Of a stretch of DNA of 55,582 nucleotides, positions 32,374-50,530 are shown piece by piece. A program made the position numbers and the translations under genes. The stretch covers positions 62,001 to 117,582 of the forward strand of contig JAWMAR010001777.1 of the NCBI GenBank assembly GCA_036785375.1. The letters are read 5' to 3'. Positions within the stretch are counted from its first letter, which is position 1, and the number at the start of each line of letters is the position of its first letter. The stretch comes from Leucoraja ocellata. Lineage: Eukaryota. A model generated the notes under the pieces. It did no database searches, was not told the origin of the DNA, and saw only the letters and a program-made list of their open reading frames with translations.

Positions 32374-33202
32374 GACAGGCCCACTCAGTATTCAAACAAC
32401 GTAAGATCCGAAAACACAAGGCCCATTCAGTGTTGGTGTTGCATGATGCCACAGAAAGTAGGCCCAATCTCTATTCAATGTACTCTGGGCCCAATCACTT
32501 TAGTCGCGGTTACCCTGATAGTGCACTGAATGGGCCAAATGCAATCAGCCGAGAGTAGTCCAGGATACCCAACTAGTGGGATGAGTGGCTTTGTGGCTCC
32601 ATGTGGCCTATTCTTATTTTGGGGGCCGATACTAACTCACTCACCCGCCATCAAAGGCCCAATCAATGTCTAAGTGAAAGCGCACCCAAGATGGGTACCA
32701 GGCAAATCGATCTGAACTAATTTACAATCCTTTGGAGTCATGCAATCCCAGCTAATTCCAGAAATGGTGGAACACGAGGAAAAACGAGAGCACATTTAGA
32801 GCAAGGTGCTGGTTCCTTCGATAAACAAATATAGCAAACTAGGTTAGGCTTTTGTAGTTCCGCTTTTATTTGTGATTTAACAGAAACATATTACAGAGAT
32901 GTTTTTAAAAGCATAACACGAAGTGGTCAAAACAACTGAATTCCACACTGAGACCAGGTACATTGAACATGTAGCTTGAGAGTCAAAGGTTAGCTCTGAA
33001 TTAAGGACAATTGAGCAAAAAAGGAGTAAATAGATATTTGCTCATATACGGAATGTGTGCATGCGTTGGATTGTTGGGTATGTATTTACACATGCATTGA
33101 CATTACATTTATTTACAGGCCTTCGGTTAGGCCGCACTTGCAGTATAGTGTGGAGGTCCAGGTCGTCCCTTCGAGGGAATAATGTGGAGGCTTTGGCGAA
33201 GA

Positions 33203-33434
33203 ACTTAATTCGGGCGCGGGGCTTTATTTCACAGAGGCCCAGGACCGTTGGAGAGTGTGGAGGAGGGTCAGGGCAGTGAGTACTTAAATCGGGCGCGGGG
33301 CTTTATTTCACAGAGGCCCAGGACTGTTGGAGAGCAGTGGAGGAGGGTCAGGGCGGTGAGTACTTAAATCGGGCGTGGGGCTTTATTTCACAGAGGCCCG
33401 GGACCGTTGGAGAGCAGTGGATGAGGGTCAGGGC
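33203..33434. repeat. ~80-bp tandem repeat x3 (probable LINE 5'UTR monomers)
   Basis: acttaa(a/t)tcgggcg at 33203, 33282 and 33362. Confidence 0.85.
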
Positions 33435-33582
33435 TTACCAAAATCCGTAACGTTCCACACTCCATAGGGAGGGTTCTGGTGGAAGCTGCTGATTGGTGGA
33501 AGCAGACTAGAGGAAGCAGCTGATTGGGTGCAACCTCAGGTTAGCATTTATGCTTTCTGGTTAAAGGTGCAGTGCTTTAGTA

Positions 33583-34009
33583 AAGGTACAGTGGGCTAAG
33601 GGTACAGTGGGCTAAAGGTACAGTGGGCTAAGGGTACAGTGGTCTAAGAGTACAGTGGGCTAAAGGTACAGTGGGCTAAAGGTACAGTGGGCTAAGGGTA
33701 CAGTGGGCTAAAGTTACAGTGGGCTAAAGTTACAGTGGGCTAAAGGTACAGTGGGCTAAGGGTACAGTGAGCTAAAGGTACAGTCGGCTAAAGGTACAGT
33801 GGGCTAAAGGTACAGTGGGCTAAAGGTACAGTGGGCTAAGGGTACAGTGGGCTAAAGGTACAGTCGGCTAAAGGTACAGTGGGCTAAAGGTACAGTGGGC
33901 TAAAGGTACAGTGGGCTAAGGGTACAGTGGGCTAAGGGTACAGTGGGCTAAGGGTACAGTGGGCTAAAGGTACAGTGAGCCAAGGGTACAGTGGGCTAAA
34001 GGTACAGTG
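33583..34009. repeat. 16-bp minisatellite, ~26 copies, upstream of CR1 ORF1
   Basis: ggtacagtgggctaa(a/g), period 16. Confidence 0.95.
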
Positions 34010-34142
34010 CTTTTTGTTTATATAATAAAGGTGCAGTTTAAAGGTCAAGAGGGAGCAGCTGTTGTGAGTCAGATACCTGCTGATTTCTCCCAGGAGTTTC
34101 TATTGTATTATACTGGTATCGGATCCAGGGTAAGGCGGGAGA

Positions 34143-35076
34143 ATGACAGTCAGAGCAGTATACTGTTCTGGATGTCAGATGTGGGAGGTCATGGTGTCGG
34201 ATGGCCCTCCAGACATCCACATCTGCACCAGGTGCAGCGAGATGGGGCACCTAAGGGACCGTATTAGGATCCTGGAGCAGCAGCTCGATGACCTCTGTCT
34301 GATCAGGGAGAGTGAGGAGGTCATAGGGGGGAGTTATAGGGAGGTGGTCACTCCAAAACCACGGGAGAGAGACATGTGGGTCACGCTAAGGAAGGGCAAG
34401 GGGCAGAGACAGGGACGAGTGAGTACTCCAATGTCGGTACACCTCGCAAATAAGTACTCCTGTTTGAGTACGGATGGGGGTGACAGCCTACCTGGGGGTA
34501 GTGACAGCGGACGGGCCTCCAGCACAGAGACCGGCCCTGTTGCTCCAAAAGGTAGGGAAAAAAAGAGGGCAATAGTAATTGGGGACTCTATTGTTAGGGG
34601 GTCGGATAGGCGATTCTGTGGACGCAGTCGGGAGACCAGGATGGTGGTCTGCTTCCCTGGTGCCAAGGTCTCGGACGTGTCTCAACGCATCCAGGATATC
34701 CTTAAATTAGAGGGAGAGGAGCCTGAGGTCGTGGTACATATAGGTACCAATGACATTGGTAAAAAAAAGGGAAGAGGTCCTGAAGGGAGGATTTAGGAAG
34801 TTGGGAGGAGAGTTAATGAAAAGGACCAAAAAGGTAACAATCTCAGGATTACTGCCTGTGCCACGCGACAGTGAGAGTAGGAATGGAGCGAGGTGGAGGA
34901 TAAATGCATGGCTGAAAGACTGGTGCAGAGGGCAGGGATTCAAGTTTCTGGATCATTGGGACTTCTTTTAGGGAAGGTGGGACCTGTACAAATAGGATGG
35001 GTTGCCCATGAACCCAAGGGGGACCAATATCCTGGCGGGGAAATTTGCAAAGGCTACTGGGGAGACTTTAAACTAG
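34143..35076 (+). pseudogene. CR1 ORF1: zinc finger/leucine zipper plus SGNH esterase
   Basis: CSGC..CTRC, LRDRIRILEQQLDDL, VIGDSIVR, CFPGA, VHIGTND; frameshift at ~34761-34770 and in-frame TAGs near 34969 and 34993. Confidence 0.88.
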
Positions 35077-35204
35077 AATGTTTGGGGCGAGGGACTCAAA
35101 TAGAGAAAGCTAGTGGACAGAATGGGAGGCAGGAAGCAGACAAGGGAAGCACTCGGACACAAGAGAAGAAAGAAAAAAAAGGAAATAAACAGAGAATGAG
35201 AGAC

Positions 35205-49300: not shown

Positions 49301-49551
49301 TCGCTCTTCAAGAACTGATGCATGTACAGCTAACAGAGGACGGATGTCCCAGGGGACTCTTCGCTGTCACTTGTAAAGCTAAACGCTGTTCTTCTAAAGC
49401 TCATATAAAATAACGTTAATTGTTCGGAAGACAGTTGGACATTTCTGGAAACAATCCATGTAACATTAAGCGGTGAAATTCATTTGAATTTGCTTCACAC
49501 GGCCTCTCCCCCGGTGCTTGTAGGTTGGAGCAGGATAAAACTAGGTGCCCA

Positions 49552-49628
49552 GGTTTTTGTACGAGGAAGTCGCTGTTTGCAGCACCGTGACCCCACTGTA
49601 CACAGTGAGACAGACCCGCACAAAAACC
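49552..49628 (-). other. IGHD: IgH D1 segment (TACAGTGGGGT, 49590-49600) with V-facing 12-RSS and D2-facing 22-RSS
   Basis: ggtttttgt-22-caccgtg | D | cacagtg-12-acaaaaacc. Confidence 0.93.
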
Positions 49629-49964
49629 TCACATACAGTTCACACTCAGGTTTCATTTGAAACACGATTTTAAATGGTCCAGCAGTTCACAGAGAACACA
49701 GTAAATATACATAACACCAACAATCTCCCTTCGTCTCACTTGCGTTATGGAATGAGTATATTTTCGTGGTCTATGATTTTACACAACGCTATCGGTATGC
49801 GTGAAGCGAATTAAAAAAACCTCATACATTTGGTTACATTTTTGAATATCGTGTTGGATTTGCGAATGGTAGTTTGCCTCCATTTCCCGACTGTTATTAT
49901 AGCTGTTGAAATAATTGCTCACCTCTAGTCTTTGATGGTAAAAGCTGGACTTCCCAACCGTTGC

Positions 49965-50003
49965 CGTTGTTGTACGGGTCTGACACTGAATGCTCACACT
50001 GTG
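49965..50003 (-). promoter_or_regulatory. V 23-RSS
   Basis: CACAGTG, 23-nt spacer, ACAACAACG (2 mismatches to the consensus nonamer). Confidence 0.88.
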
Positions 50004-50307
50004 TCTCTCGCACAGTAATAGACAGCGGTGTCTTCGATCTTCAGGTTCCTGGCGATCACGGTGAACATATTATTCGAATTGTCTGTGGACGGAGTAAATC
50101 GGCTCTCTATCCCTGGAGCGAAGTACTTGGCAGACGGCGAGTTGTAAGCAAGCAGCCACTCCAGCCCCTGCCCGGGGACCTGACGGACCAAAGACATATA
50201 GTAGCTGCTAAGTGTGAACCCGCTGGTTTTACAGGTCAGCGTGATGGAGCCTCCAGGAACGGCGGTCCCTGTCTTGGGCTGAGTCAGAACGACATCGGAA
50301 TGGACAC
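50004..50307 (-). CDS. IGHV: IgH V exon (IgM-type)
   Basis: [81 protein letters not shown]. Confidence 0.97.
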
Positions 50308-50484
50308 CTGCAAGTTAAAAAAAGGCATGAATGGCGAGGATAAAATATTGACCATTAATCCCCCACTCTAATTATCAATAGGAAATACATTGGGAGGGTT
50401 CTAGAGTGGGTAGAAGGGGAATGGTGTCTGTAGGGGATATAGAACTGAGAAACGGGTGAGGAATTTGTCCAACTCATTACTCAC

Positions 50485-50530
50485 GGACTATTAACGCCAG
50501 GAACAGACTGAGTGAAACCGCAGACATCAT
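50485..50530 (-). CDS. IGHV: IgH leader exon
   Basis: MMSAVSLSLFLALIV plus 1 nt (46 nt), gtgagt donor, splices in frame to the V exon. Confidence 0.92.

What the first reader, a model, noticed from the sequence alone, without database searches (positions are those of the whole stretch)
32374..50530. Recombination-competent-looking IgM cluster with no Cmu4, secretory tail or TM exons
Seen: leader, V, D1, D2, J and Cmu1-3 are open, with GT-AG sites and RSS order 23-12/22-12/12-23. After Cmu3 there are ~760 bp of intron, a CR1, then ~33 kb of almost pure repeats in which I find no Cmu4- or TM-like sequence; no gap lies between 10655 and 50955. Known: chondrichthyan IgM has four C domains, with the tailpiece on Cmu4. 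Inference: a 3'-deleted cluster (e.g. CR1-CR1 recombination) that could still rearrange and act as a V/VDJ donor, as a splice partner for a neighbouring cluster's C exons, or as a short isoform.
Basis: partly seen in the sequence, partly recalled or inferred. Interest (0 to 1): 0.7.

Follow-up and report, generated by a model that had tools for sequence, protein, structure and literature searches.

The report
Skate IgM gene lost its tail
One of about sixty copies of a skate antibody (IgM) gene has an intact front but lacks its last domain, secretion tail and membrane anchor, likely because two copies of the same retrotransposon recombined and cut out the DNA between them, so it is likely a very young pseudogene rather than a new kind of antibody.

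Summary
Confirmed. Leader, V, D1, D2, J and Cmu1-3 are open with correct splice sites and RSS, and the whole 202-kb contig holds no Cmu4 or TM exon. All 43 sibling units examined keep Cmu4. Siblings carry same-orientation CR1 copies in the Cmu3-4 intron and behind TM2. The window's CR1 is a hybrid of the two, with one switch inside an 88-bp identical block at 39377-39464. Both sides trace to one sister array (contig C1661): upstream 101 kb at 99.5-99.7% with five shared private variants; downstream the copy behind its second unit, sharing a private insertion. That implies a ~41-kb unequal crossover. The same CR1s deleted Cmu3 in three V-less units and left a conversion tract in another. Open frames reflect youth, since 41 of 43 siblings, V-less ones included, are also open. 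No downstream C exons exist to splice to, and the read-through tail is not conserved. Long reads were not available, so a chimera is not excluded; the RNA runs held no IgM reads. The scan earlier reported a V-less sibling (e1-9581511), not this tail-less form. Verdict: young deletion pseudogene, low interest.

The parts
50485..50530 (-). IgM leader exon (MMSAVSLSLFLALIV), GT donor
50004..50307 (-). VH exon, open, germline configuration; FR2 Trp replaced by Leu as in 37 of 38 family members
49965..50003 (-). V 23-RSS (nonamer 7 of 9 consensus)
49552..49628 (-). D1 (49590-49600) with 12-RSS upstream and 22-RSS downstream
49233..49300 (-). D2 (49261-49272) with 12-RSS on both sides
48818..48904 (-). 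J (48818-48865, WGGGT motif, GT donor) with 23-RSS
44263..44559 (-). Cmu1 exon, open; protein identical to the sister copy
42116..42433 (-). Cmu2 exon, open; 42351 is a silent variant private to this copy (0 of 37 siblings), usable as a transcript marker
40395..40694 (-). Cmu3 exon, open, GT donor intact; last IgM exon on the contig
40327..40394 (-). Read-through frame past the Cmu3 donor: 22 residues with two Cys, then stop; not conserved among siblings
39632..40394 (-). Remaining 5' part of the Cmu3-Cmu4 intron (763 bp); 40177-39845 differs from the sister at 14 sites, likely a conversion tract
39465..39631 (+). Hybrid CR1, part derived from the intronic copy (20 of 20 informative sites match sister unit a's intronic CR1)
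39377..39464 (.). Crossover interval: 88 bases identical in both parent CR1 copies
33757..39376 (+). Hybrid CR1, part derived from the long copy that lies behind TM2 in siblings (17 of 17 informative sites match sister unit b); broken endonuclease-RT frame; 5' limit approximate
39222..39227 (-). First AATAAA behind Cmu3 (inside the antisense CR1; by eye also in a sibling's intronic copy)
35205..36870 (+). Second RT element (Penelope-like; label recalled) nested in the CR1; among IgM units in the 40 scored candidates only sister unit b shares it
10655..33756 (.). Array spacer, repeat-rich; 22655-33833 is 99.5% like the spacer behind sister unit b, 11277-18646 is 99.1% like the spacer behind sister unit c

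Best explanation
This IgM cluster has lost Cmu4, the secretory tail and both TM exons at a hybrid CR1, likely through a recent germline unequal crossover between two same-orientation CR1 copies, and is predicted to be a pseudogene that may still rearrange but would make no B-cell receptor or polymeric IgM. Shown: the exons are absent from the contig; the CR1 is a one-switch hybrid of the intronic and the post-TM copy; both halves trace to one sister array. Inferred: the intronic CR1 of the V-bearing unit paired with the post-TM CR1 of the next (V-less) unit, removing about 41.0 kb relative to the sister (5.06 kb is the minimum if the partner was the unit's own post-TM copy). Inferred: the event is germline, since the V-D-D-J is unrearranged. 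Inferred from known Ig biology: without TM exons an in-frame VDJ here cannot signal, so a B cell would need another cluster, and the intact sister and many other clusters cover the loss.
For: No Cmu4 or TM in 202 kb. Of 58 Cmu3 3'-end matches, 56 have a Cmu4 tail within 3 kb, one is a local duplicate, and one is this gene (paired by eye). 43 of 43 fetched siblings have Cmu4. At 25 family-wide diagnostic sites the window reads 15 intronic-type then 10 post-TM-type; against the specific parents, 20 of 20 then 17 of 17, with 2 private differences. The sister contig is colinear for 101 kb upstream at 99.5-99.7% and shares five otherwise private V-region variants. Downstream matches sister unit b at 99.2% over 5.9 kb against 97.4% over 2.6 kb for unit a, and shares a nested insertion. 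The same repeats recombine elsewhere: three units are hybrids lacking Cmu3, and one intronic copy (C755a) carries a long conversion tract without deletion. Open frames are uninformative: 41 of 43 siblings have unbroken C exons in the stretches fetched, V-less ones included.
Against: The junction occurs once in one assembly, and no long read or second individual was seen to span it. A switch at a homologous place inside a repeat is also what a chimeric read or misjoin looks like. The downstream spacer is not a simple copy of sister unit b's: it keeps 4.9 kb that b lacks, turns c-like further on, and unit c is missing. So more than one exchange is needed, or the partner was a relative of b. No inactivating change exists in promoter-proximal exons, RSS or splice sites. 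Silence at the RNA or protein level was not shown.
Confidence: 0.78

Rival explanations
1. The junction is an artefact: a chimeric read or assembly misjoin across the two CR1 copies, or a somatic event in the sampled tissue. The real locus has Cmu4 and TM.
For: Single occurrence; the break lies inside a repeat; the contig is a short (202 kb) piece in a family of 97-99.7% identical copies. No read-level test was possible.
Against: The perfectly shared block is only 88 bp, in an assembly that resolves seven tandem 15-kb units in a row and has 19.7-Mb contigs, which points to long reads. Both flanks differ from the sister by 0.3-0.9% with structural differences, so they are not copies of the sister's reads. 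No orphan Cmu4 is left over: all 60 tails are accounted for. Other crossover and conversion products of the same repeats exist.
Confidence: 0.11
2. The deletion is real and the cluster is used. It rearranges, and either secretes a three-domain mu chain through Cmu3 read-through and the CR1 AATAAA, or hands its VDJ to another cluster's constant exons by shark-type inter-cluster switching.
For: All upstream parts are intact. It is 1 of 18 fully open clusters among 38 V loci. Read-through gives a 22-residue tail with two Cys, and an AATAAA lies 1.17 kb on. Inter-cluster switching, a three-domain IgM (IgM1gj) and a short IgW with its own Cys-rich tail are described in sharks (PMC4279169, passages). 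Partly rearranged and non-productive IgH genes are transcribed and mutated in shark B cells (PMC2435157, passages).
Against: The exact tail is present in 5 of 41 units, a one-residue variant in 12, and 24 stop early or differ, so it is intron sequence, not a kept feature. The V differs from the intact sister at 2 bases. The deletion is found once. There is no membrane form to select such B cells.
Confidence: 0.08
3. The transcript regains a 3' end by splicing from Cmu3 to a neighbouring cluster's Cmu4/TM, or to a cryptic exon in the antisense CR1.
For: A crude scan finds 70 acceptor-like sites in the 30 kb downstream; 5 open a phase-1 frame with a 19-residue hydropathy of 1.6 or more, the best 2.21 against 2.14 for the true TM. 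V-less Cmu3-4-TM units do follow V-bearing heads on sibling contigs.
Against: No IgM exon lies in the 101 kb from Cmu3 to the contig end. The hydrophobic frames lie in repeat sequence, mostly the antisense strand of LINEs, and by eye lack the conserved TM motif. The acceptor rule was loose and had no shuffled control.
Confidence: 0.03

Closest known systems
Elasmobranch IgM minicluster (V-D-D-J-Cmu1-4-sec-TM); thorny skate model P0121 (89% to Cmu2), shark mu chains P0059 and P0073
   Same: Layout, RSS order, exon phases and domain homology of the first three C domains (PMC5192425 section 6.1).
   Different: Cmu4, tailpiece, TM1, TM2 and their poly(A) regions are deleted.
IgM pseudogene clusters of nurse shark (three pseudogenes beside 9-12 functional genes; PMC5192425 section 6.1; Groups 6-8 in PMC2435157, passages)
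   Same: Dead copies in a multicluster family.
   Different: The lesion here is a clean 3' deletion with everything upstream open. I could not read the paper that describes the shark lesions.
Retroelement-mediated non-allelic homologous recombination (Alu-Alu and L1-L1 deletions with a chimeric element at the joint; recalled)
   Same: Direct repeats, an in-register hybrid element, a crossover inside an identical block, and conversion products in sibling copies.
   Different: The substrate is a fish CR1, built into an amplified IgM unit at up to three places.
IgM1gj of nurse shark (three C domains; PMC4279169, passages)
   Same: Three constant domains.
   Different: IgM1gj lacks Cmu2, is VDJ-joined in the germline and is secreted; this copy lacks Cmu4 and tail and is unjoined.
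Short secreted IgW (two C domains with a long Cys-rich tail; PMC4279169, passages)
   Same: A short chain ending in a non-standard Cys-bearing tail is what read-through would give here.
   Different: IgW short forms arise by alternative splicing of a gene that keeps its TM exons; the tail here is not conserved even among siblings.

Membership tests
Elasmobranch IgM cluster | One V, two D, one J within about 2 kb with RSS obeying the 12/23 rule | tested here: met
Elasmobranch IgM cluster | C exons of mu type rather than IgW | tested here: met
   42-56% to shark Cmu1-3 in order, 37% or less to IgW; the sibling's Cmu4-tail is 71% to shark IgM
Functional elasmobranch IgM gene | Four C domains with tailpiece on Cmu4 | tested here: not met
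Functional elasmobranch IgM gene | TM1 and TM2 exons downstream | tested here: not met
   siblings have them
Functional elasmobranch IgM gene | Rearranged and expressed in B cells | tested here: inconclusive
   the two RNA runs laid had no reads on any Cmu exon
Repeat-mediated unequal-crossover deletion | Two same-orientation homologous elements flanking the lost part in the intact form | tested here: met
   intronic copy in 39 aligned cases, post-TM copy in 27
Repeat-mediated unequal-crossover deletion | In-register hybrid element with a single switch in an identical block | tested here: met
   20 of 20 then 17 of 17 sites, 88-bp block
Repeat-mediated unequal-crossover deletion | Junction present in germline DNA molecules | not testable with these tools
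   no long reads; short-read contigs end inside the CR1 start
IgM1gj | Lacks Cmu2, keeps Cmu4 and tail, VDJ joined in the germline | tested here: not met
   Cmu2 present, Cmu4 absent, V-D-D-J open
IgW short secreted form | IgW-type domains and a conserved alternative tail | tested here: not met

The most novel reading that the evidence does not exclude
The tail-less cluster rearranges but cannot trigger heavy-chain exclusion, so some skate B cells secrete a passenger three-domain mu chain with a retrotransposon-terminated Cys tail, or recycle its VDJ onto other clusters. More broadly, CR1 copies built into this amplified IgM unit act as an exon-deletion cassette that is producing three-domain IgM variants (no Cmu4 here, no Cmu3 in three other units): a living model of how short isotypes such as IgM1gj are born.
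Probability: 0.07. Interest if true: 0.6.

Novelty: new member of a known kind. Interest (0 to 1): 0.22.

Why it matters
As a pseudogene it matters little. It is a clear, base-resolved example of gene death in the cartilaginous-fish multicluster Ig system, and it warns that V-based cluster counts overstate functional IgM genes. Its useful side is experimental. A cluster with working RSS but no membrane exon, marked by a private silent variant in Cmu2, is a natural control for whether elasmobranch heavy-chain exclusion depends on receptor feedback, and for whether inter-cluster switching can rescue a VDJ from a dead cluster. The family-level pattern (the same CR1s deleting different exons) gives a concrete route to IgM forms with fewer domains.

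Tried and rejected
Expression. No RNA holder was listed. I laid 4 of the 24 listed runs on 38900-49900. The two RNA runs (about 5 and 1 in 100 of each read) gave zero depth in the bins lying wholly on or around the Cmu exons and D-J, with reads only on repeats, so they say nothing about this or any sibling cluster. The V exon was not covered. The two contig sets hold the family as collapsed majority contigs, and none listed spans the switch; it is not known whether they are the same species. Homolog search with V returned mostly multi-V gene models and no skate V. FR2 Trp-to-Leu as a private lesion: rejected, family-wide. The Cmu3 duplicate on C2034 as the reciprocal CR1 product: rejected, its joint runs from inside Cmu4 to the Cmu2-3 intron. 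The first Cmu4/TM tblastn used wrong-frame translations and was redone in frame; the blastn result stands. Rfam found nothing in the window at gathering score and only sub-threshold hairpin hits in 7000-12000, so my 28S label is recalled, not confirmed. Three of 41 V-motif hits (C20, C969, C1442) were left out as probably other genes, unchecked. About 17 clusters of the older subgroup were counted by motif only; their C regions were not fetched. In 5 of 43 units the TM exon was not inside the 10-kb stretch and was not followed up. Seven paper searches found no tail-less elasmobranch IgM cluster or CR1-driven Ig exon loss. Three key papers (Zhu 2012, Lee 2008, Hsu 2016) were not held, so absence from print is weakly tested.
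Full report
Observation. The window is part of contig C1777 of its genome. On the - strand it carries leader, V, D1, D2, J and three C exons, all open, with GT-AG phase-1 introns and RSS spacers 23, 12/22, 12/12, 23. Pfam gives V-set and three C1-set domains. The C exons match shark IgM Cmu1-3 in order (42-56%) and IgW poorly (37% or less). The nearest protein to Cmu2 is a thorny skate model at 89%, so the animal is likely a skate. Behind Cmu3 lie 763 bp of intron and an antisense CR1-type LINE (the CR1 label is recalled, the endonuclease and RT domains are from Pfam). 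No N lies between 10655 and 50955.

Absence of the 3' exons. I took Cmu4, tailpiece and TM from a sibling, where Cmu4 starts 1.8 kb behind Cmu3 and TM1 about 5 kb behind it. Neither DNA nor protein queries find them anywhere in the 202,023 bases of C1777; the same queries find three copies each on the sister contig C1661. Motif counts in the genome give 41 V, 41 Cmu1, 54 Cmu2, 58 Cmu3 and 60 Cmu4-tail matches (the assembly may hold both haplotypes). Paired by eye, 56 of 58 Cmu3 have a tail within 3 kb, one is a local duplicate, and one is this gene. All 43 sibling units fetched contain Cmu4. The tail-less state is unique in this assembly.

The junction. Siblings of this subgroup carry same-orientation CR1 copies at up to three places: a 524-bp 3' fragment in the Cmu3-4 intron, a long copy about 0.5 kb behind TM2, and in many units a copy in the Cmu2-3 intron. 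Aligning 39 intronic, 27 post-TM and 22 Cmu2-3 copies shows the window's element to be a hybrid. At 25 diagnostic sites it reads 15 intronic-type then 10 post-TM-type. Against the specific parents it matches the intronic copy of C1661 unit a at 20 of 20 sites down to 39465, and the post-TM copy of unit b at 17 of 17 sites from 39376. The switch lies in 88 identical bases, 39464-39377, and two further differences are private.

The parents. C1777 and C1661 are colinear for 101 kb upstream at 99.5-99.7% and share five V-region variants seen in no other copy. A third contig, C353, has the same upstream stretch at 99%, so allele and recent duplicate cannot be told apart. Downstream, the window matches the sequence behind C1661 unit b (99.2% over 5.9 kb, then 99.5% over 11.2 kb) better than that behind unit a (97.4%), and shares with b alone a 1.67-kb nested RT element (40 candidates scored). 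Relative to C1661 the loss is about 41.0 kb: unit a's Cmu4 and TM, the spacer, and the whole V-less unit b. The minimum, within one unit, would be 5.06 kb. The picture is not perfectly simple: the window's spacer keeps 4.9 kb that b lacks, becomes c-like further down, and has no unit c. That needs further exchanges, which are common here; the intron behind Cmu3 is itself a patchwork.

Real or artefact. No long reads were at hand, and public short-read contigs do not span the switch. Indirect evidence favours a real event. The identical block is short for a long-read join; both flanks differ from the sister; no orphan Cmu4 is left over; and the same repeats have recombined elsewhere. Three V-less units (C1356, C1461, C1544) are Cmu2-3/intronic hybrids that lack Cmu3, with one shared pattern and so probably one event, and C755's first unit has an intronic copy converted over about 250 bp without deletion. 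The unrearranged V-D-D-J argues against a B-cell somatic origin (inference).

Function. RSS and splice sites equal those of the intact sister, and 20 of 38 family V loci carry germline joins, so RAG can likely act here. Open frames do not show selection: exons differ from the sister at five bases, and 41 of 43 siblings, V-less ones included, have unbroken C exons. Read-through of the Cmu3 donor gives 22 residues with two Cys, but 24 of 41 units stop early or differ there. The first AATAAA is at 39227 in the antisense CR1. No C exons follow in 101 kb, which removes the cis splice-partner idea within this contig. Cryptic hydrophobic frames exist in the repeats (5 of 70 loose acceptor sites) but are unsupported. 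From known biology, a heavy chain without TM exons forms no receptor, and without Cmu4 and tailpiece no polymer (recalled). In nurse shark, rearrangement is reported to stop once a viable receptor forms, and aberrant genes are transcribed and mutated (PMC2435157, passages). V regions can appear on another cluster's C exons (PMC4279169, passages; PMC5192425, section 6.1). Passenger expression or donation is thus possible but untested. The two RNA runs laid had no IgM reads at all.

Comparison and verdict. It is an IgM cluster by origin, not a functional IgM gene (two defining features not met), and neither IgM1gj nor short IgW. It works like a classic repeat-mediated deletion with a chimeric element at the joint. 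Pseudogene clusters are known in sharks (PMC5192425, section 6.1). I saw three papers in passages or one section, and others only as search listings; seven searches found no tail-less cluster, but three key papers were not held. Earlier scan notes on other pieces of this genome describe V-less and germline-joined siblings, which agree with my counts but are not independent support; none describes this form. Verdict: observation confirmed, deletion mechanism supported and mapped, functional readings unsupported; new member of a known kind, interest 0.22.

Noticed in passing
window 50192-50190 and L061-L096: The normally invariant FR2 tryptophan of VH is Leu in 37 of 38 IgM V genes of this genome (Met in one), whereas the shark and chimaera chains in hand have Trp. 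A lineage-wide change at a core Ig-fold residue; whether it is in print was not checked.
   Followed up: partly
L036, L043, L047 (C1356, C1461, C1544): Three V-less units splice-ready as Cmu2-Cmu4-TM: Cmu3 is deleted at a hybrid CR1 (Cmu2-3 intron copy joined to Cmu3-4 intron copy). One of the three also has a broken Cmu2 and TM.
   Followed up: partly
window 10160-10479 and 7300-10160; C1661, C1196, C404, C1356, C2299, C755, C5: The IgM arrays end in tandem 15-17-kb units holding what I recall as the 3' end of 28S rRNA plus spacer-like repeats (1349 candidates; Rfam did not confirm). On C1661 the V-less IgM units start exactly inside this fragment (matching window 10297), so they seem to have been captured into the tandem unit. 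Several such arrays run to contig ends.
   Followed up: partly
L026 (C755 first unit): Intronic CR1 with a conversion tract of about 250 bp from a post-TM or Cmu2-3 type copy, without deletion.
   Followed up: partly
L050 (C2034): A 3.0-kb tandem duplication giving Cmu3, partial Cmu4, Cmu3, Cmu4; the joint is not CR1-mediated.
   Followed up: partly
L061-L096: 20 of 38 V loci are germline-joined in varied ways (V-D1, V-D-D, D-J, VDJ).
   Followed up: partly
window 9462-9538: Near-perfect GC-rich palindrome, flanked by a longer inverted repeat (about 9429-9571); gives only sub-threshold miRNA hits.
   Followed up: no
window 3710-6565 and 28713-31412: Long open LINE frames that look like in-frame fusions of two elements (a Tc1-like start joined to a 900-aa CR1 ORF2; a CR1 RT joined to another LINE RT); labels by eye.
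   Followed up: no
window 48181-48373 and 42660-42722: A short inverted duplication of a SINE-like element in the J-Cmu1 intron, and a small insertion nested in a CR1 3' end in the Cmu1-2 intron.
   Followed up: no
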